IMG/VR virus record: IMGVR_UViG_3300045988_153358
Origin: a virus
Taxonomy: Duplodnaviria; Heunggongvirae; Uroviricota; Caudoviricetes
Direction: 5' to 3' (one strand)
Length of the DNA: 48,302 bases
Positions 1 through 48,302 of the stretch are shown here, piece after piece (position 1 is the stretch's first letter; every line of letters starts with the position of its first letter). The position numbers and the translations under genes are program-made. The notes under the pieces are model-generated. The model was not told where the DNA came from and did no database searches. It saw nothing but the letters and a program-made list of their open reading frames with translations.

Positions 1-119
1 GGGCGACTGGCGATTCTTTATTAGTGAGCCGGAAATTATTTCAGTTGAGGATTTACCTCCCGGCTGGGGATTACTTCACGTTGTTAACGGAAGAGTACGG
101 AAAGTACATGGATGGCCCA
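1..119. repeat. terminal direct repeat: bases 1-119 identical to 48184-48302; indicates circular or terminally redundant genome (likely assembly overlap)
   Basis: exact identity of the two window ends read directly. Confidence 0.9.
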
Positions 120-2559: not shown

Positions 2560-2683
2560 TACTGCCTGTGATTGGGTAAAGCCCATCTACCTGACTGATC
2601 ACGATATCGATGTTATGGACCGCCAGACAAAGAAAGATATTCTGGCTCATAACAGGGCATGGGAAATCAACTGCCCCAAGTAA
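2474..2683 (+). CDS. o-spanin (Rz1-like lipoprotein), overlaps the i-spanin in another frame
   Basis: signal peptide with lipobox-like LIASC; overlapping architecture typical of spanin pairs. Confidence 0.6.
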   Translation: MYSRVLTIWLMTMLIASCGSRGSVPVVVDTACDWVKPIYLTDHDIDVMDRQTKKDILAHNRAWEINCPK

Positions 2684-2852
2684 TATATATTTCTATAATT
2701 ATATAAATATATAGTTACAACATTCTATGCGCTTTTCTCATGGGCGCACGCATCAACCATGTTTGTCTGATATGCCGCCGCGCCCAAAAATCCTGAATTT
2801 ATTGGCTGGGATTTTCGTGCGCGGCGCCACACCAGACAAACAGATCAAATAT

Positions 2853-2928
2853 GGCCCCTTAGCTCAGTGGTTAGAGCAGGCGACTCATAATCGCACGGTC
2901 ATCGGTTCAAATCCGGTAGGGGCCACCA
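2853..2928 (+). tRNA. tRNA with anticodon CAT (Met elongator type, or Ile if lysidine-modified), includes 3-prime CCA
   Basis: cloverleaf folded by hand: 7-bp acceptor stem GGCCCCT/AGGGGCC, D-arm GCTC/GAGC, anticodon loop CTCATAA, T-arm ATCGG/CCGGT with TTCAAAT loop. Confidence 0.85.
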
Positions 2929-3236: not shown

Positions 3237-3824
3237 ATGGAGGCAATTGCATTGTTTAATCTGATTTATGCAGATCCCCCCTGGGAATACAAAGATAAGT
3301 GTAAGGATGGGAATCGTGGAGCTGGTTTTAAGTATCCAACGATGAAAGCTGAGGATATTGCTCGTATTCCTGTCTGGCAGCTTGCTAATCCTGAATCGTG
3401 TTTGTTGGCCATGTGGTGGGTTCCGACTCAGCCAGAAGAAGCGTTGCTGGTGGTGAAAGCATGGGGATTCAGGCTTATGACCATGAAGGGCTTCACATGG
3501 AACAAATGTGGTAGCCGACAACCAGATAAGCTGGTGATGGGGATGGGGCATATGACTCGTGCAAACAGTGAAGATTGCTTGTTTGCGGTAAAAGGCAAAT
3601 TGCCGACCCGCCTTGATGCGGGGATCATTCAGTCGTTTACATCGCCTCGTCTGGAGCATTCTCGGAAGCCTGATGTGGTTCGTGACAAGCTGGTAAGGCT
3701 GTTAGGTGATGTTCCTCGTATTGAGCTGTTTGCTCGCGGTGATTTACCTGATGGTTGGCATGGCTGGGGCAACCAGTGCAATGGAGGTATCCAGTTGCAT
3801 GATGCTCTCTGGCAAGTGGCATAG
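3237..3824 (+). CDS. MT-A70 family N6-adenine DNA methyltransferase
   Basis: DPPW catalytic motif (IYADPPWEY). Confidence 0.8.
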   Translation: MEAIALFNLIYADPPWEYKDKCKDGNRGAGFKYPTMKAEDIARIPVWQLANPESCLLAMWWVPTQPEEALLVVKAWGFRLMTMKGFTWNKCGSRQPDKLVMGMGHMTRANSEDCLFAVKGKLPTRLDAGIIQSFTSPRLEHSRKPDVVRDKLVRLLGDVPRIELFARGDLPDGWHGWGNQCNGGIQLHDALWQVA

Positions 3825-3936
3825 AATTATATAATTATAGATTTATATAAAAAGTGCTTTACAGGTGGGAAAAAATTTCCTATGGTTATACCCGAAACCG
3901 AGCGATACCCGCCCTGGTTAAACCGGAGATAACCCG
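3821..3936 (+). promoter_or_regulatory. promoter-leader cassette copy 1: AT-rich upstream element, TTTACA, 17-nt spacer, TATGGT, conserved leader with GGAG ribosome-binding site
   Basis: 118/119 identical to 35286-35404 and about 100 nt identical to 44816-44918. Confidence 0.7.
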
Positions 3937-4206
3937 ATGAAAGTACAAGACCGTGAAGTAGTAAAAAACCTCCTGCAATACCTGACCTCAAAAAACCTGA
4001 CGGGCAGCGTTGAGTTCCGTGAAGCGTTAAAACATTTCAACGTCACTACGGTTTATCGTTGGGAAAACAAACATTCTGAAAGACCGTATGTGGTGGATGT
4101 TTTTGCGCCTGATATTGAGTGCGGTTTTGAGCGCCATTCATTCAAAAAGAAACATTCCGCTGATGTTTTTTGTGAGGTTGTATGTGCGGCAGGAGATGAT
4201 GAGTGA
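3937..4206 (+). CDS. hypothetical protein (89 aa), first gene after cassette copy 1
   Basis: ORF track; conserved leader and ribosome-binding site. Confidence 0.6.
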   Translation: MKVQDREVVKNLLQYLTSKNLTGSVEFREALKHFNVTTVYRWENKHSERPYVVDVFAPDIECGFERHSFKKKHSADVFCEVVCAAGDDE

Positions 4207-34083: not shown

Positions 34084-34347
34084 ATGGAACTTGTACGCAA
34101 AACACGCAAAGAGTTCTTGGACCTGTATCGCATGGGAGCTTTCACTTGTGTTGTGGCTACCCAGGACGAAGTGACAAAAAGCTGGCGGCTTTTTGCTCTC
34201 AATAAAAAAGGGATTGCCGTTTTCATTGAAAAAGCCCGTGGTGGTATCCGCGAATGGGCGGGATTGAATTATGTGGCTGATTTTTGCGCAGCTATGGGGA
34301 TTCGTCGCTGGGAAGTCCATATGCCAGGAGTAAAGTCACAAAAATAG
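34084..34347 (+). CDS. hypothetical protein (87 aa)
   Basis: ORF track; internal ATG with GAGG Shine-Dalgarno. Confidence 0.45.
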   Translation: MELVRKTRKEFLDLYRMGAFTCVVATQDEVTKSWRLFALNKKGIAVFIEKARGGIREWAGLNYVADFCAAMGIRRWEVHMPGVKSQK

Positions 34348-34535
34348 GGCTTTCGCGTCGAAAATGAGGCGAAACTGAAAACGAGATTTCATTAACAAAT
34401 AAGCAACATAAAAAACGGTGGAAAACGCCCAGGAAAACATGATCTTTTGAGCGGATTTTTTAGATCCGACAATGAACGGTGATCCGGTGGTGCCGATAAC
34501 GTCCATTATGTTAAATAGCCCCGTTTTTCTTGAAA

Positions 34536-34581
34536 TTATAACTCACAGGTTATATAGTTAGTGATATAAACTACAGGTTAT
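34536..34581 (+). promoter_or_regulatory. two dyad-symmetric operator-like sites upstream of the toxin-antitoxin operon
   Basis: TATAAC-N6-GTTATA at 34536-34553 and TATAAA-N6-GTTATA at 34564-34581. Confidence 0.5.
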
Positions 34582-34591
34582 AGGATTGAGC

Positions 34592-34939
34592 ATGTGGACG
34601 GTACTTTTTAGCCAGCGATTTGACGACTGGCTAAATGAGCAAGAAGACGCTCTTCAGGAAAAGGTTTTGGCTGATTTGAAAAAGCTACAGGTTTACGGAC
34701 CTGAGTTACCCAGGCCATATGCCGATACCGTAAAAGGTTCTCGGTACAAAAATATGAAAGAGCTTCGCGTTCAGTTTTCTGGCCGTCCGATAAGAGCCTT
34801 TTATGCGTTCGATCCGATTCGCCGGGCCATCGTTCTTTGTGCAGGAGACAAAAGTAACGATAAGCGGTTTTATGAAAAACTGGTGCGTATAGCTGAGGAT
34901 GAGTTTGCAGCACATCTGAACACACTGGAGAGCAAGTAA
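34592..34939 (+). CDS. type II toxin, RelE/ParE superfamily (gp49/HigB-like)
   Basis: 115 aa; MWTVLF start, ELPRPYADTVKGSRYKNMKELR and VLCAGDKSNDKRFYE patterns; upstream of HTH partner. Confidence 0.75.
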   Translation: MWTVLFSQRFDDWLNEQEDALQEKVLADLKKLQVYGPELPRPYADTVKGSRYKNMKELRVQFSGRPIRAFYAFDPIRRAIVLCAGDKSNDKRFYEKLVRIAEDEFAAHLNTLESK

Positions 34940-35238
34940 TGAGAACATTAGATGAGGCGATTGCCAGCCGTTCACCTGAAAGCCAGGCGCGAATTAAAGA
35001 AATGGCAGATGAGATGATTCTTGAGGTCGGCTTGCAGATGATGCGTGAAGAACTCCAGTTATCACAAAAACAGGTTGCTGAGGCGATGGGTATAAGCCAG
35101 CCAGCAGTAACAAAGCTGGAGCAGCGCGGAAATGATTTAAAGCTGGCGACATTAAAGCGTTACGTTGAAGCTATGGGAGGCAAATTAAGCCTGGATGTTG
35201 AGCTTCCCACAGGAAAACGAATAGCGTTTAACATCTGA
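34939..35238 (+). CDS. HTH (XRE-type) antitoxin
   Basis: 99 aa; HTH LSQKQVAEAMGISQPAVTKLE; ATG overlaps toxin stop. Confidence 0.75.
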   Translation: MRTLDEAIASRSPESQARIKEMADEMILEVGLQMMREELQLSQKQVAEAMGISQPAVTKLEQRGNDLKLATLKRYVEAMGGKLSLDVELPTGKRIAFNI

Positions 35239-35252
35239 TCAGAACGAATGAT

Positions 35253-35280
35253 AAGCCCCTGTTGCAAAGGGGCTTTTTTG
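35253..35280 (+). terminator. Rho-independent terminator
   Basis: AAGCCCCT/AGGGGCTT stem followed by TTTTTT. Confidence 0.7.
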
Positions 35281-35285
35281 CGCTC

Positions 35286-35401
35286 ATAGAATTATATAAT
35301 TATAGATTTATATAAAAAGTGCTTTACAGGTGGGAAAAAATTTCCTAAGGTTATACCCGAAACCGAGCGATACCCGCCCTGGTTAAACCGGAGATAACCC
35401 G
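35286..35401 (+). promoter_or_regulatory. promoter-leader cassette copy 2
   Basis: 118/119 identical to 3821-3939; the single mismatch is in the candidate -10 (TAAGGT versus TATGGT). Confidence 0.7.
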
Positions 35402-35782
35402 ATGAGCATGATTAAAATCCGCAAAAACGCTTTCCTTAAAATTCAAACTATCCTGGCTGGTTCTGTTGGCGTGATTTGCCGTTCTTCTTCAAGCCGCATC
35501 GATGACGGCTACGATGATGAGTATCGTTTGTCCTCGTGCGATGAGGCTTTAACCTGGCTGAAGGAGAATCAGGAACGTGCCCAGGTATATCTGGAAACAG
35601 AGAACGGCAATCAGATGCTCCGTATTAGCGGTCGTTATGGATTTGAAACCACATTCATGGCCTATTTTAATCAGGCTTACTTTGACAAGGAGTTGGCCTG
35701 GTACACTGATCGCATGAGCAAAAGCGAGCCAGCCCCGATTACACCGCCGAACGATAAACCATTTTTATTCCTCGTTAAGTAA
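35402..35782 (+). CDS. hypothetical protein (126 aa)
   Basis: ORF track; conserved leader and ribosome-binding site. Confidence 0.6.
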   Translation: MSMIKIRKNAFLKIQTILAGSVGVICRSSSSRIDDGYDDEYRLSSCDEALTWLKENQERAQVYLETENGNQMLRISGRYGFETTFMAYFNQAYFDKELAWYTDRMSKSEPAPITPPNDKPFLFLVK

Positions 35783-38882: not shown

Positions 38883-39046
38883 TGTGATGATTCCCTTAAA
38901 GGTTAAGGATACTCACCACCGTCAGGTTCCAATCATTGGGTGGTGAGACGTGCAGGGTTGGAACTACCGGACACAATGACGAACCGGCGAGTCTTACGAC
39001 TCCCCCGCACGCCCCACCATAATTTGGGTGTAGCAGTGCTTTACGC

Positions 39047-39150
39047 ATAAAAAAACCGCTAACGCGGTATGCGCCATTGTGTCTACGGGGTTCCAATCCC
39101 GACCGTAGATTTTGCTACGGCTCGGAAAGTGTCCACCAATGGCGCATTCA
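39047..39150 (-). ncRNA. candidate c4-like antisense sRNA (5-prime end not determined)
   Basis: minus-strand hairpin ACCGC-GUUA-GCGGU plus U7 at 39049-39068; stem CCGUAG/CUACGG; GAUUGGAACC element repeated in the leader at 38925-38936 and complementary to 38954-38964. Confidence 0.35.
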
Positions 39151-39638
39151 TGTCAATACGGCGGGATTTTAACAGAGACAACCACATAGCGTGGGTTTAT
39201 TGGTAGGCAGAAACAAAAAAACCGCCCTATTGAGGACGGTTCTTTCGTGCTGATCGGATTCGCGGTCCTTTCAGCATAACGTCGTTGTATAAACAACCAC
39301 GCAAGCACAAGCAGCAAGTTAATTTTACCCAAAAGGTAATAATAGTCCACTATTATGCTTCAAAAAATTGTGGTTCTTGTTGTGCCTGCAAACTCACAGA
39401 TTGTGGGTAGGTTACTGATTTTGTGAAAATAAACGAGTTTTTTCGTTTAATTTCTTTCCTATTACTAATCTTAAAATAATCGTAAAATACCTGTGGACCT
39501 TCCCGCCGATTCGCACCCGGGCACCGACTTTAGGGGAGGATTCTCCGTTGCCGTACATGCAAGCACAAGCAGCCGTGCTTGCTCTCGCGTTGTTTTCGTC
39601 GGTGGGGATGCCGTGAAACGGCCTGTAAGGGCCATACA

Positions 39639-39761
39639 ATGAAAAAATACTGTATGTGTATTTTTATCGTTGTTACTGGGGCTTTGTTTACGCCACATGG
39701 GGAGGGTTGGAAGATTACTGATAACGCTCTGAATGTGACGATAAACATTAGCAGCAAGTAG
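39639..39761 (+). CDS. possible small hydrophobic peptide (40 aa)
   Basis: AAGGG Shine-Dalgarno 8 nt upstream; translation MKKYCMCIFIVVTGALFTPHGEGWKITDNALNVTINISSK; strong terminator follows. Confidence 0.3.
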   Translation: MKKYCMCIFIVVTGALFTPHGEGWKITDNALNVTINISSK

Positions 39762-39766
39762 CGATT

Positions 39767-39790
39767 AGGCCCCTTCGGGGGCCTTTTTTA
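39767..39790 (+). terminator. Rho-independent terminator with UUCG tetraloop
   Basis: AGGCCCC-TTCG-GGGGCCT followed by TTTTT. Confidence 0.75.
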
Positions 39791-40259: not shown

Positions 40260-40302
40260 GTGTATCCCCTCTTATATAAATCTATAAATCTATAATTATA
40301 TA
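40260..40302. promoter_or_regulatory. AT-rich repeat motif between parA stop and parG start
   Basis: tandem TATAAATC units; same motif family as other intergenic sites. Confidence 0.5.
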
Positions 40303-40974: not shown

Positions 40975-41080
40975 TTTGGTTATATAATTCTATAAATCTA
41001 TATTTATAGAACGAGGTAAGCATAACCAACTTTTTGGCGGATGAAAAGCGTTTTATATAATTATATAAATCTATAATCAT
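40975..41080. promoter_or_regulatory. parA upstream region with two further copies of the AT-rich motif
   Basis: 40981-41010 and 41053-41077 carry TATATAATT...TATAAATCTATA-type elements. Confidence 0.5.
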
Positions 41081-41106
41081 GTAAGCGGGCGTTAGCCCGC
41101 TTTCAG

Positions 41107-44807: not shown

Positions 44808-44924
44808 ATCTATAAATATATAATTATAGATTTATATAAAAAGTGCTTTACAGGTGGGAAAAAATTTCCTATGGTTATACCCGAAACCGAGCGATACCCG
44901 CCCTGGTTAAACCGGAGAAATCTG
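44808..44924 (+). promoter_or_regulatory. promoter-leader cassette copy 3
   Basis: about 100 nt identical to copies 1 and 2, diverging only in the last 6-7 nt before the ATG. Confidence 0.7.
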
Positions 44925-45992
44925 ATGAATAAACAAGTAATTATTTCTGACTGGATCAACAACCCTAACAGCCTGTTAAGCACTGATACTGGCTACCTAT
45001 TACGCCATGTTAATGGTCGTATGGTCAAAAGCGATGAGCACGAAACCTTTTTCTTTGTTGAAGACGATGGGCGTATCTATGAGGATGGTTACTCTTATGA
45101 AGCCCAAACTGGTTGTATCCCTGCGGAGCTGGTGGATGTAACAGAAGATCTGCGCAAAGCATGGCTTGAACAGCAGCAGCGCGGAGATGATTACGTAAAC
45201 ACCTATCAGGAACGCCAGAACGCGCGTCTTGCCCGATATATTGCTCGTGCAGAAAAAGCCAGAAAAGAAGGTGCGGTAGCGCATAAGCGAGCGCATGACC
45301 TGTTGGATGTGATCCCGTTAGGCCAGCCGATTTTAGTTGACCATTATAGCGCGAAAGGCCATCGCCGCCGTTTGTCTAAAGCTGATGCGTTATTCAGAAA
45401 AGCGTTTGTTGAATGCGAAAGTAAAGCATCACACTACGAGAGCAAAGCCGCAGGTGTTGGTCGTAATGGAATTTCGTCTGATGATCCTGATGCGCTATTT
45501 AAGTTGCTTCGTAAGCTGCAAGGCTGCATGAAGTCACACGTCAAAATGAAGGCCGCAAATAAGGCCATTCGCAAATACAAAAAAGACCAAATACAGCAGC
45601 TTTCTGCATTAATCGATCTCAGGTTTACAGAAAGCGAAGCCAAAGAGTTACTGGCCGGAGATTTCTGTGGGCGCATCGGATTCCCTTCATACGCACTGAG
45701 CAACAATAACGCCGAAATCAAACGACTACAGAGCCGTATTAAGGAGCTTGAATCGGTCAAGTCTGTAACAGGAGCACAGCGCGAAGAATACGACGGCTTT
45801 TCTATGGAGATAGATCCAGAGGATAACCGCATCCTGTTTTATTTCCCTGGCAAACCAGAGGCAAACATTCGTTCGCTGCTTAAATCACGCGCCTTTAAGT
45901 GGAGTCCAACCCGTAATGCATGGGTTCGCAAGATTACTCCAAACGCCCTGGCTGATGCCCGATATCTGAAAGAATCGCTATTGAAAGCCTGA
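44925..45992 (+). CDS. hypothetical protein (355 aa), first gene after cassette copy 3
   Basis: ATG at 44925 at the same leader position as the other copies; the track ORF start at 44871 lies inside the promoter. Confidence 0.6.
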   Translation: MNKQVIISDWINNPNSLLSTDTGYLLRHVNGRMVKSDEHETFFFVEDDGRIYEDGYSYEAQTGCIPAELVDVTEDLRKAWLEQQQRGDDYVNTYQERQNARLARYIARAEKARKEGAVAHKRAHDLLDVIPLGQPILVDHYSAKGHRRRLSKADALFRKAFVECESKASHYESKAAGVGRNGISSDDPDALFKLLRKLQGCMKSHVKMKAANKAIRKYKKDQIQQLSALIDLRFTESEAKELLAGDFCGRIGFPSYALSNNNAEIKRLQSRIKELESVKSVTGAQREEYDGFSMEIDPEDNRILFYFPGKPEANIRSLLKSRAFKWSPTRNAWVRKITPNALADARYLKESLLKA

Positions 45993-46069
45993 CAGTAAGC
46001 CTACGGCGGGATGTCTCCCGCCGTATATAGAATTATATATTTATATAAATGTATAAGGACGCCTCGACA

Positions 46070-47953: not shown

Positions 47954-48302
47954 ATGGCGTTAACACACCGCGAACTCTGTCAGATTGCGTACAAGTTCCT
48001 TAAGCGCAACGGGTTCAAGGTTTGCTTTCATGACCGCTTTATAGCTGTAACCAGTACCGGAGAACAGCCAGATGCTATGGGATTCAGAAATTCAGCATCA
48101 TGCTTGATAGAGGCGAAGTGTTCTCGTGCTGACTTGTTGGCAGATAGAAAAAAGCGTTTCCGTAAAAATCCCTCACTTGGCATGGGCGACTGGCGATTCT
48201 TTATTAGTGAGCCGGAAATTATTTCAGTTGAGGATTTACCTCCCGGCTGGGGATTACTTCACGTTGTTAACGGAAGAGTACGGAAAGTACATGGATGGCC
48301 CA
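47954..48302 (+). CDS. 5-prime portion of wrap-around ORF (171 aa in total, continues at 2-286)
   Basis: ATG at 47954; no stop before window end; PD-x12-EAK motif. Confidence 0.45.
   Translation, partial: MALTHRELCQIAYKFLKRNGFKVCFHDRFIAVTSTGEQPDAMGFRNSASCLIEAKCSRADLLADRKKRFRKNPSLGMGDWRFFISEPEIISVEDLPPGWGLLHVVNGRVRKVHGWP

What the first reader, a model, noticed from the sequence alone, without database searches (positions are those of the whole stretch)
34536..35238. RelE/ParE-family toxin with HTH antitoxin in toxin-first order and paired dyad operators
The toxin precedes the antitoxin (HigBA-like order) with an ATGA-type overlap. Two palindromic sites (TATAAC-N6-GTTATA and TATAAA-N6-GTTATA) lie 30 bp apart upstream, the expected autoregulatory operators. 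This is a likely addiction module for the episome and possibly an abortive-infection function.
Basis: partly seen in the sequence, partly recalled or inferred. Interest (0 to 1): 0.4.

Follow-up and report, generated by a model that had tools for sequence, protein, structure and literature searches.

The report
HigBA-type toxin–antitoxin cassette on phage-plasmid
This is an ordinary, already annotated two-gene toxin–antitoxin "addiction" cassette of a well-studied family, with its own promoter, two repressor-binding sites and a terminator, carried on a 48-kb E. coli phage-plasmid and nearly identical to a cassette on the plague plasmid pPCP1.

Summary
A 115-aa Gp49/RelE-superfamily toxin (34592-34939) is followed by a 99-aa Xre-HTH antitoxin (34939-35238). 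Two dyads, TATAAC-N6-GTTATA (34537-34554) and TATAAA-N6-GTTATA (34565-34582), lie on the only sigma-70-like promoter. Two details need correcting: the gene junction is TAATG (1-nt overlap), not a 4-nt ATGA overlap, and the dyads are 28 bp apart, not 30.

The window is a circular ~48.2-kb E. coli phage-plasmid, and the cassette lies 1.5 kb from repA. Homologues at 55-59% identity (A. baumannii HigBA, IncC HigBA) have been shown experimentally to be RNase toxins, autorepressed operons and plasmid-stabilising modules. The toxin model has a RelE/HigB2 fold.

Across 80 related loci, the same 6-N6-6 dyads recur at about -55 and -29 from the start codon: 162 observed, against 47 in shuffles and 25 in coding DNA. 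The two arms change in a compensatory way, and the half-site type tracks one residue of the antitoxin recognition helix (K59 here). M. tuberculosis HigA3, a solved homologue, has the identical TATAAC-N6-GTTATA site at its -10 box.

Verdict: a functional, autoregulated HigBA (Gp49-type) addiction module, and a new member of a known kind. Nothing supports an abortive-infection role. Interest is low.

The parts
34503..35228 (+). Extent of the mobile cassette: the stretch shared at 95.3% identity with Y. pestis pPst/pPCP1
   Evidence: blastn of the window against L002/L007. Homology begins 27 nt upstream of the -35 box and ends 10 nt before the antitoxin stop codon. The flanks are unrelated.
34530..34558 (+). 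Sigma-70-like promoter: TTGAAA (34530-34535), 17-nt spacer, TATAGT (34553-34558)
   Evidence: It is the only promoter-like site found in 34300-35450, matching 10 of 12 positions. The same -35 / dyad / -10 layout appears in most related loci.
34537..34554 (.). Operator dyad 1, TATAAC-TCACAG-GTTATA. It fills the promoter spacer and overlaps the -10 box.
   Evidence: In pPCP1 the arms are conserved while the 6-nt spacer differs. A dyad occupies the equivalent position, about -55, across homologues.
34565..34582 (.). Operator dyad 2, TATAAA-CTACAG-GTTATA. It lies between the expected transcription start and the Shine-Dalgarno sequence.
   Evidence: A dyad occupies the equivalent position, about -29, across homologues.
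34582..34585 (+). Shine-Dalgarno sequence AGGA of the toxin gene, 6 nt before the ATG
   Evidence: Read from the sequence.
34592..34939 (+). Toxin gene, 115 aa, Gp49-type RelE/ParE-superfamily (HigB-like)
   Evidence: Pfam PF05973 at 81.3 bits against a cut-off of 23.9. AlphaFold model with pLDDT 88. Foldseek matches to RelE, HigB2 and HigB1 at probability 1.0. All family-invariant residues are present, as is G64, which is nearly invariant (90% or more). Comparison with L008 gives 53 synonymous against 9 non-synonymous codon changes.
34927..34930 (+). Shine-Dalgarno sequence GGAG of the antitoxin gene, inside the end of the toxin gene
   Evidence: Read from the sequence. Together with the TAATG junction it makes translational coupling plausible.
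34939..35238 (+). Antitoxin gene, 99 aa. The N-terminal ~30 residues are followed by an Xre-type HTH (residues 32-83), with the recognition helix around S53-Q62 including K59.
   Evidence: Pfam HTH_3 at E 3.9e-10. PDB sequence matches to M. tuberculosis HigA3 6lty (E 4.8e-5), HigA2 7ewc and S. pneumoniae HigA 6af3.
35253..35279 (+). Intrinsic terminator: 8-bp G+C-rich stem, 7-nt loop and a T run
   Evidence: RNA fold of -14.9 kcal/mol, z-score -2.6. The simple scan listed only the hairpin on the opposite strand, so the + strand terminator rests on the fold and on reading the sequence.

Best explanation
This is a self-contained type II toxin-antitoxin operon of the Gp49-type HigBA group (the same group as A. 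baumannii HigBA1/2, IncC HigBA and M. tuberculosis HigBA2/3).

One promoter drives toxin then antitoxin, and a terminator ends the unit. The toxin is most likely a ribosome-dependent mRNA endonuclease with a RelE fold. The antitoxin most likely neutralises it by direct binding. Its HTH dimer, alone or with the toxin as co-repressor, most likely binds the two TATAA(C/A)-N6-GTTATA dyads. These cover the promoter spacer and -10 box and the transcription start region, so the operon represses itself.

On this low-copy phage-plasmid the cassette most likely acts as a post-segregational killing (addiction) module. Cells that lose the prophage-plasmid lose the labile antitoxin and are arrested by the remaining toxin.

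Shown here: gene order, family, fold, promoter and operator anatomy, conservation of the operators and their co-variation with the antitoxin, and replicon context. Inferred from characterised homologues: toxicity, RNase activity, neutralisation, repression and stabilisation.
For: - **Family and fold.** Pfam Gp49 at E 5.4e-23 and HTH_3 at E 3.9e-10. The AlphaFold model has pLDDT 88.3. Its best PDB matches are RelE, V. cholerae HigB2 and M. tuberculosis HigB1/RelE, all at probability 1.0.
- **Antitoxin.** It matches solved HigA3, HigA2 and HigA by sequence.
- **Transcription unit.** There is a single promoter, the two dyads occur nowhere else in the window, and a terminator follows.
- **Operators across homologues.** In 80 non-redundant homologous loci, 6-N6-6 dyads number 162, against a shuffle mean of 47 (maximum 63) and 25 in coding controls. 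They cluster at about -55 and -29.
- **Compensatory arm changes.** Arm position 5/14 is complementary in 115 of 118 dyads, almost all as A·T or G·C (T·A in 2). Position 6/13 is complementary in 89 of 118, using four pair types.
- **Half-site tracks the recognition helix.** G at position 6 goes with Q in 39 of 40 loci. C goes with K or R in 12 of 14. A goes with A in 12 of 13 (the remaining locus has an alignment gap at this residue). A phage contig outside the set also pairs K with TAGAAC.
- **Solved homologue.** The M. tuberculosis HigA3 promoter carries TATAAC-CTAGAG-GTTATA around its -10 box. HigA3 was crystallised on DNA containing that half-site (PMC7340258), and it has K at the position equivalent to K59.
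- **Experiments on homologues.** A. baumannii HigB2 is an RNase neutralised by HigA2. Its promoter is repressed by HigA2, and more strongly by the complex, and the locus stabilises an unstable plasmid (PMC5906591). IncC HigB is a ribosome-dependent endoribonuclease, G64V abolishes its toxicity, and the operon is an effective addiction module (PMC8265657). G64 is present here.
- **Selection.** Purifying selection is evident.
- **Context.** The window is a circular phage-plasmid. The cassette lies 1.5 kb downstream of repA and a few kb from parA. Matches are on plasmids in 257 of 260 places in E. coli genomes. Its frequency (78 records at 95% identity or more) is similar to that of the backbone: repA in 71 genomes and terminase in 72.
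Against: - No experiment exists for this copy or for the 98%-identical pPCP1 copy in the literature I could search.
- The toxin has no sequence-level match to any solved structure, whether searched as a single sequence or as a profile. Catalytic residues therefore cannot be assigned by homology.
- Dyad 2 is imperfect, with 5 of 6 arm pairs, and its left arm has decayed in pPCP1.
- In the M. tuberculosis HigA3 study, the oligonucleotide carrying the complete palindrome did not shift in EMSA. Only the one carrying the left half plus the centre did (PMC7340258).
- The correlation between helix residue and half-site is not corrected for phylogeny.
- Phage-plasmid relatives that lack the cassette were not specifically sought.
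Confidence: 0.85

Rival explanations
1. The main role of the cassette is anti-phage defence (abortive infection or superinfection exclusion) for the lysogen, rather than maintenance of the plasmid.
For: Some type II TA modules do defend against phages (established knowledge). The element is itself a prophage, which would benefit from excluding competitors. The toxin gives a partial PADLOC match to NsnC at E 6e-7, covering profile positions 190-290 of 294.
Against: The PADLOC match covers only the RelE-like domain of a longer protein, and no defence system is recognised. The close homologues that have been characterised were shown to be stabilisation modules (PMC5906591, PMC8265657). The cassette sits beside repA and par, not in a defence island. 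It also sits on the small non-phage plasmid pPCP1.
Confidence: 0.08
2. The toxin is a ParE-like gyrase poison rather than an mRNA endonuclease.
For: RelE and ParE share one fold, and RefSeq names the protein only as 'RelE/ParE family'. Over-expression of IncC HigB causes cell elongation, and ciprofloxacin induces the operon (PMC8265657).
Against: The best structural matches are RelE, HigB2, HigB1 and YoeB, which are RNases. The single ParE-labelled hit (6n90) ranks 34th. Two homologues at 55-59% identity were shown to cleave RNA (PMC5906591, PMC8265657).
Confidence: 0.04
3. The HTH protein is primarily a phage regulator of the Cro/CI type that controls other genes of the phage-plasmid, and the upstream ORF is incidental.
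For: Small Xre-type HTH proteins are common phage regulators, and the window encodes several others.
Against: The dyad motif occurs nowhere else in the window. The two genes and their promoter travel together as a unit between unrelated replicons. They also co-occur in the related loci examined: a downstream antitoxin-sized ORF in all 85, all but two aligning as HTH antitoxins. The protein matches HigA antitoxins specifically.
Confidence: 0.02
4. The cassette is an inactive remnant, with a toxin attenuated by mutation, kept only as an anti-addiction or neutral passenger.
For: Attenuated TA copies are common. A. baumannii HigBA1 is described as less active than HigBA2, and antitoxins of the two variants cross-neutralise each other's toxins (PMC5906591).
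Against: Both ORFs are intact. All family-invariant residues, and the nearly invariant G64, are retained. Synonymous changes far outnumber non-synonymous ones. The promoter, operators and terminator are all intact.
Confidence: 0.05

Closest known systems
Acinetobacter baumannii plasmid HigBA1/HigBA2 (pAB120 higBA2; PMC5906591)
   Same: Gp49-domain toxin first, then an Xre-HTH antitoxin of about 100 aa. The toxin is 57-59% identical to an A. baumannii plasmid copy. A TATA-type 6-N6-6 dyad lies in the promoter (TATAGA-N6-TCTATA). Experiments showed RNase activity, autorepression by the antitoxin and more strongly by the complex, and plasmid stabilisation.
   Different: The Acinetobacter loci usually show one dyad, downstream of the -10 box, rather than two. 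The half-site is TATAGA and the helix reads KQPSLSAIEN, against TATAAC and SQPAVTKLEQ here. The host replicon is a small plasmid, not a phage-plasmid.
IncC (IncA/C) plasmid HigBA, also called the tad-ata-like system (PMC8265657)
   Same: The toxin is 55% identical, and G64, which is essential for toxicity, is conserved. The gene order is the same. Two TATAGG-type dyads lie in the promoter. Experiments showed a ribosome-dependent RNase and an addiction module.
   Different: The two dyads overlap (16 bp start to start), against 28 bp here. There is a 4-nt intergenic gap instead of an overlap. The operator half-site and the recognition helix differ.
Mycobacterium tuberculosis HigBA3 (Rv3182/Rv3183) and HigBA2 (Rv2022c/Rv2021c); HigA3 and HigA3-DNA structures 6LTY/6LTZ (PMC7340258)
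   Same: The antitoxin matches HigA3 at E 4.8e-5 and HigA2 at E 2.5e-4. The higBA3 promoter contains TATAAC-N6-GTTATA around the -10 box, which is the same half-site as dyad 1. K occupies the position equivalent to K59. The N-terminal ~34 residues of HigA3 are not involved in DNA binding.
   Different: These loci are chromosomal and in an actinobacterium. One palindrome was reported rather than a pair. HigA2 uses a different site (ATATCAC-N6-GTGATAT) located inside higB2 (PMC11205783).
Vibrio cholerae HigB2-HigA2 (5JA8, 8A0X)
   Same: The toxin fold is similar (Foldseek probability 1.0, TM 0.57-0.71). The toxin comes first, and the antitoxin has an Xre domain that binds operator DNA.
   Different: Sequence identity is only about 15% and there is no sequence-level match. 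I did not test which Pfam family V. cholerae HigB2 belongs to.
Addiction modules of other phage-plasmids: P1 Phd-Doc, and the N15 gp49/gp48 and Tad-Ata systems
   Same: The proposed biological role is the same, namely post-segregational killing that stabilises a plasmid prophage. N15 gp49 gives its name to the Pfam family that the toxin belongs to.
   Different: Phd-Doc is an unrelated family with the antitoxin first. N15 gp49 is too distant for tblastn to find at E 1e-3. Tad toxins are reported to be only about 20% identical to this HigB group (PMC5906591).

Membership tests
Pfam PF05973 (Gp49) within the RelE/ParE toxin superfamily | The sequence scores above the family's curated gathering threshold | tested here: met
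   81.3 bits against a cut-off of 23.9, E 5.4e-23, covering profile positions 1-89 of 90.
Pfam PF05973 (Gp49) within the RelE/ParE toxin superfamily | RelE-type fold: N-terminal helices packed on an antiparallel beta-sheet | tested here: met
   The AlphaFold model has pLDDT 88.3 and pTM 0.77. Foldseek against the PDB gives RelE 2khe/4fxe, HigB2 8a0x/5ja8 and HigB1 7awk, at probability 1.0 and TM-scores on the target of 0.6-0.8.
Pfam PF05973 (Gp49) within the RelE/ParE toxin superfamily | Residue shown to be essential for toxicity in a characterised member (G64 of IncC HigB) | tested here: met
   G64 aligns with G64 of the IncC protein and is nearly invariant in 35-37 homologues. The G64V result is from PMC8265657.
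Pfam PF05973 (Gp49) within the RelE/ParE toxin superfamily | Growth inhibition and ribosome-dependent mRNA cleavage | not testable with these tools
   This needs kill-and-rescue and cleavage assays. It has been shown only for homologues (PMC5906591, PMC8265657).
Type II TA, reverse-order HigBA group | Toxin gene immediately upstream of the antitoxin gene in one transcription unit | tested here: met
   There is a 1-nt TAATG overlap, a single promoter upstream and a terminator downstream. The same order is found in all related loci.
Type II TA, reverse-order HigBA group | Antitoxin with an Xre/Cro-type HTH domain related to known HigA antitoxins | tested here: met
   HTH_3 at E 3.9e-10. PDB matches to HigA3 6lty at E 4.8e-5, HigA2 7ewc at E 2.5e-4 and HigA 6af3 at E 4.6e-3.
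Type II TA, reverse-order HigBA group | Palindromic operator(s) overlapping the operon's own promoter | tested here: met
   The dyads lie in the promoter spacer and -10 box and at the start site. They are conserved and co-vary across 80 loci. Physical binding was not tested.
Type II TA, reverse-order HigBA group | The antitoxin binds and neutralises the toxin, and is proteolytically labile | not testable with these tools
Classical HigB of Proteus Rts1 / E. coli (HigB-like toxin Pfam family) | Match to that toxin family | tested here: not met
   Gp49 was the only Pfam family matched at E 0.01 or better. E. coli and Shigella HigB structures are only weak fold matches, with E 0.04-0.13. The name HigB applies here only in the loose sense used for Gp49 toxins (PMC5906591).
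Tad-Ata subgroup (pAMI2, SXT, N15 gp49/gp48) | Detectable pairwise similarity to N15 gp49 | tested here: not met
   tblastn of the toxin against 50,697 phage records at E 1e-3 or better returned 7 records, none of them N15. The two share only the Pfam family.
Known anti-phage defence systems (PADLOC) | Full-length match to a component of a defined defence system | tested here: not met
   There is only a partial match to the C-terminal third of the NsnC profile (E 6e-7), plus generic HTH matches.

The most novel reading that the evidence does not exclude
The family may carry a simple, evolvable operator-recognition code. One residue of the antitoxin recognition helix (K59 here) would set the base at position 6 of the TATAxx half-site: K or R with C, Q with G, A with A. 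A second helix segment (SQPA versus KQP[ST]) would track position 5, A versus G. The TATAAC/K59 cassette of this phage-plasmid and pPCP1 would then be transcriptionally insulated from the TATAAG, TATAGG and TATAGA cassettes of co-resident plasmids such as IncC. The K-with-C pairing recurs in at least four or five separate lineages: the window and pPCP1, Mannheimia, the TATAGC clade, a high-GC phage contig, and M. tuberculosis HigA3.
Probability: 0.45. Interest if true: 0.3.

Novelty: new member of a known kind. Interest (0 to 1): 0.15.

Why it matters
For the element itself, the cassette probably helps explain how a 48-kb plasmid prophage persists in about 1.3% of completely sequenced E. coli genomes, including the reference strain ATCC 25922. 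It also shows that the same cassette (95% DNA identity) sits on Y. pestis pPCP1, in the ~1.9-kb segment that also carries the plasminogen-activator gene pla (PMC4793686), so the module moves between very different replicons.

For the field it adds little. The family, its gene order, its RNase activity, its autoregulation and its stabilising role are already established.

The one modestly useful by-product is the comparative map of operator half-sites against the recognition-helix residue. It gives directly testable predictions for operator specificity and for cross-talk between co-resident HigBA cassettes.

Tried and rejected
- **Sequence searches of the toxin against the PDB.** Both the single sequence and a 35-sequence profile found nothing meaningful. 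The relation to RelE and HigB2 is visible only at the fold level.
- **First structure job.** I repeated it with alignment A2.
- **Naming the phage-plasmid group.** pSLy3 and pWPMR2 turned out to be SSU5-type elements unrelated to this myovirus-type element. I dropped the attempt.
- **Experimental work on the pPCP1 copy.** I found none. In the one pPCP1 paper read that mentions these two genes (PMC4793686) they appear only as a 'putative transcriptional regulator' and a 'hypothetical protein'.
- **The '3 places per record' in the BLAST tables.** This looked as though the cassette might be repeated. It is explained instead by an unrelated 121-nt repeat that starts 47 nt after the antitoxin stop.
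- **More distant homologues as tests of the helix/half-site rule.** The Deinococcus locus showed no clear dyad. The freshwater phage contig has R with G at position 6, which does not fit the rule. The Pannonibacter dyads fit on only one arm.
- **Rfam.** It finds no RNA family inside the cassette.
- **The simple terminator scan.** It missed the + strand terminator. I confirmed the terminator by folding.
Full report
**1. What is in the sequence**

Reading 34200-35500 and listing the ORFs shows two same-strand ORFs.
- The first runs from ATG 34592 to TAA 34937-34939 and encodes 115 aa. An in-frame TTG lies at 34586.
- The second runs from ATG 34939 to 35238 and encodes 99 aa.

The junction is GTAATGAG. 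The toxin stops at TAA, and the antitoxin ATG shares only one base with it (TAATG). True ATGA overlaps do occur in 18 related loci, and 7 loci share the window's TAATG junction.

Each gene has a Shine-Dalgarno sequence: AGGA at 34582-34585 and GGAG at 34927-34930.

- TATAAC-TCACAG-GTTATA at 34537-34554
- TATAAA-CTACAG-GTTATA at 34565-34582

They are 28 bp apart start to start. Their shared pattern, with two mismatches allowed, occurs nowhere else in the 48.3-kb window, against 0.13 expected.

The only sigma-70-like promoter between 34300 and 35450 is TTGAAA (34530), a 17-nt spacer, and TATAGT (34558). Dyad 1 therefore fills the spacer and touches the -10 box. Dyad 2 covers the expected start site and the leader up to the Shine-Dalgarno sequence.

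An 8-bp G+C-rich hairpin followed by a T run at 35253-35279 ends the unit.

**2. What the proteins are**

- The first protein matches Pfam Gp49 (PF05973, RelE/ParE superfamily) at 81 bits, E 5e-23.
- The second matches HTH_3.
- NCBIfam gives only sub-threshold TA-related matches.
- The toxin has no sequence-level relative in the PDB, as a single sequence or as a profile.
- An AlphaFold model built from 37 homologues is confident, with pLDDT 88. Its best PDB matches are RelE, V. cholerae HigB2, M. tuberculosis RelE and HigB1, and YoeB, all at probability 1.0.
- The antitoxin matches M. tuberculosis HigA3 (6lty, E 4.8e-5), HigA2 (7ewc) and S. pneumoniae HigA (6af3) by sequence.

**3. Where it sits**

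The window's first and last 119 bases are identical, so it is a circular element of about 48.2 kb.
- It is 100% identical over the cassette region to E. coli plasmid pMB9698_3.
- It is about 99% identical to the 48.5-kb plasmid of ATCC 25922 and to three "Yersinia phages", vB_YpM_39, 41 and 44.

The RefSeq annotation of pMB9698_3 shows a complete myovirus structural set together with repA, parA, ParB-like genes and an XRE repressor. That makes the element a phage-plasmid. The cassette lies 1.5 kb downstream of repA. It is annotated there as "type II toxin-antitoxin system RelE/ParE family toxin" plus "helix-turn-helix domain-containing protein". The phage records call the toxin higB2.

In complete E. 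coli genomes, 257 of 260 matching places are on plasmids. The backbone genes repA and terminase occur in 71 and 72 genomes. The cassette region occurs at 95% identity or more in 78 records. It therefore looks like a regular part of this phage-plasmid lineage, although I did not compute the overlap between the lists.

The stretch 34503-35228 is 95.3% identical to Y. pestis pPst/pPCP1, with unrelated flanks. This stretch runs from just upstream of the promoter to 10 nt before the antitoxin stop codon. The cassette is thus a discrete mobile unit.

Between these two copies the toxin has 6 synonymous and 2 non-synonymous codon changes. Against a 92%-identical Klebsiella copy the figures are 53 and 9. 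This indicates purifying selection.

**4. Related loci and the operators**

The toxin has more than a thousand relatives in the protein collection, all carrying PF05973. It also matches about 2,000 plasmid records, mainly from Acinetobacter and from IncC plasmids of Enterobacterales.

I fetched 80 genomic loci (52-98% identity) and several plasmid loci. In all 85 related loci analysed an antitoxin-sized ORF follows the toxin, and all but two of these ORFs align across the HTH segment.

In the 100 nt upstream of the toxin start, dyads of 6-nt arms separated by 6 nt (at least 5 of 6 pairs) were counted in 80 non-redundant loci:

| Sequence set | Dyads |
|---|---|
| Upstream regions | 162 |
| Shuffled upstream regions | mean 47, maximum 63 |
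| Coding controls | 25 |

- 78 of the 80 loci have at least one dyad, and 54 have at least two.
- The dyads cluster at about -55 and -29 from the start codon, the same positions as in the window.
- The usual layout is a -35 box, then dyad 1 whose right arm runs into the -10 box, then dyad 2 just before the Shine-Dalgarno sequence.
- The commonest spacing is 26-27 bp. The window's 28 bp is within the range.

Among 118 dyads selected for ATA/TAT cores on both arms, the variable arm positions change in a compensatory way:
- Position 5/14 is complementary in 115 of 118, almost all as A·T or G·C (T·A in 2).
- Position 6/13 is complementary in 89 of 118, with all four pair types.

Positions 2-4 are invariant by construction of that filter.

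In pPCP1 the arms of dyad 1 are unchanged while its 6-nt spacer differs. This is the pattern expected of a protein-binding dyad.

**5. Link between operator and antitoxin**

Aligning the antitoxins and sorting them by half-site shows that the recognition helix tracks the half-site.

| Half-site | Recognition helix |
|---|---|
| TATAAG | ..TQ[IL]EQRG (Q in 39 of 40) |
| TATAAC (window, pPCP1, a Mannheimia locus) | ..[TA]KLEQ |
| TATAAA | ..TAIE |
| TATAGA | KQPSLSAIEN |
| TATAGC | KQPT[LI]AKME (K or R in 9 of 11) |

The residue concerned is K59 of the window protein.

More distant loci tested outside that set gave mixed results:
- A phage contig at 45% identity pairs TAGAAC-N6-GTTCTA with K, which fits.
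- A freshwater phage contig pairs R with G, which does not fit.
- A Deinococcus locus has no clear dyad.

The strongest outside support comes from the literature. The M. tuberculosis higBA3 promoter contains AGATATAACCTAGAGGTTATACTG, that is TATAAC-N6-GTTATA, around its -10 box. HigA3 bound and was crystallised with DNA carrying that half-site (PMC7340258). HigA3 also has K at the position aligned with K59.

There is a caveat from the same paper. The oligonucleotide with the full palindrome did not shift in their EMSA, whereas the one with the left half and the centre did.

The association has not been corrected for shared ancestry.

**6. How it most likely works**

Established experimentally for homologues:
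- A. baumannii HigB2 degrades RNA and is neutralised by HigA2 in a large complex.
- The higBA2 promoter is repressed by HigA2, and more strongly by the complex.
- No separate antitoxin promoter is active in that system.
- The locus stabilises an unstable plasmid (PMC5906591).
- IncC HigB is a ribosome-dependent endoribonuclease that lowers AAA-rich transcripts.
- G64V abolishes its toxicity, and the operon is an effective addiction module (PMC8265657).

The window toxin is 57-59% identical to the A. baumannii plasmid copy compared here (L004) and 55% identical to the IncC protein, and it keeps G64.

The inference for the window is as follows. One promoter makes a bicistronic mRNA, and the antitoxin is probably translationally coupled to the toxin. 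Antitoxin dimers, with the toxin as co-repressor, occupy the two dyads and shut the promoter off. Loss of the phage-plasmid removes the supply of the presumably labile antitoxin and frees the RNase. I put this at 0.85.

**7. Rivals**

- **Defence or abortive infection.** There is no positive evidence, only a partial PADLOC match to the RelE-like end of NsnC. The cassette also sits on a 9.6-kb non-phage plasmid.
- **ParE-like gyrase poison.** This is unlikely given the RNase activity of the homologues and the ranking of fold matches.
- **General phage regulator.** This is unlikely because the dyad motif is confined to the cassette's own promoter.
- **Decayed remnant.** The intact signals, the conserved residues and the purifying selection all argue against it.

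**8. Comparison with what is known, and novelty**

The cassette belongs to the Gp49-type "HigBA" group, which includes A. baumannii HigBA1/2, IncC HigBA and M. tuberculosis HigBA2/3. It is not a member of the classical Rts1-type HigB family, since no such Pfam match was found. It is also not detectably similar to N15 gp49 at the pairwise level.

Public records already annotate the toxin gene as a toxin, but the antitoxin only as an HTH-domain or hypothetical protein. I found no experimental work on this copy or on the pPCP1 copy. In the one pPCP1 paper read that mentions them, the two genes are described only as a putative regulator and a hypothetical protein (PMC4793686).

It is therefore a new, uncharacterised member of a well-known kind. 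The operator and recognition-helix map is a modest addition.

**9. Verdict**

The feature is ordinary. Interest is 0.15.

Noticed in passing
window 3820-3940, 35285-35405, 44809-44929: A 121-nt repeat is present three times at 90-99% identity. It consists of an AT-rich array with 8-bp periodicity (TAGAATTA TATAATTA TAGATTTA TATAAAAA), an identical leader of about 90 nt, and a Shine-Dalgarno sequence with ATG. It sits directly in front of three different ORFs: one of 89 aa at 3937, one of 126 aa at 35402, and a DUF3560 protein starting near 44925. The leader is predicted to fold at -25.2 kcal/mol, z -2.7. It is probably a co-regulated promoter and leader set of the phage-plasmid. The copy at 35285 begins 47 nt after the antitoxin stop, which explains the '3 places per record' in the BLAST tables.
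   Followed up: partly
window 2675-2729, 40272-40302, 40980-41083, 46025-46055: There are further short arrays of the same 8-bp-periodic TATAA/TCTATAA-type repeats (family D1, 13 copies). They are possibly binding sites for the element's own repressor or replication/partition proteins. Their function was not examined.
   Followed up: no
window 38936-39024 (-), 39049-39121 (-), 39493-39789 (+): Rfam finds a C4 antisense RNA (77.8 bits), isrK (67.7 bits) and ryfA (141.8 bits), all above their gathering scores. C4 and isrK lie next to the Rha/ORF6N antirepressor-like genes. This suggests a P1/P7-type immI immunity region on this phage-plasmid.
   Followed up: no
window 34503-35228, compared with Y. 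pestis pPst/pPCP1 (L002 1413-2137): The cassette is 95.3% identical to the two genes of pPCP1 that lie in the same ~1.9-kb segment as the plasminogen-activator gene pla, and its flanks are unrelated. PMC4793686 reports that this pla-plus-two-genes segment is also shared with a Citrobacter koseri plasmid. In pPCP1 the left arm of dyad 2 has decayed (GGTAAG).
   Followed up: partly
L006 (NZ_JH976447.1, labelled Amphibacillus jilinensis Y1, 9631-bp scaffold): A 9.6-kb scaffold in a Bacillota genome assembly carries a toxin 98% identical to the window's, with the same upstream sequence as Y. pestis pPCP1. It has the size of pPCP1 and is probably contamination of that assembly.
   Followed up: no
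window 2853-2925 (+): A tRNA gene is present (Rfam tRNA, 67 bits). It is annotated as tRNA-Ile on the identical plasmid.
   Followed up: no
window 1-119 and 48184-48302: The two ends of the window are identical over 119 bases. The window is therefore a circular replicon of about 48,183 bp written with a terminal overlap.
   Followed up: yes
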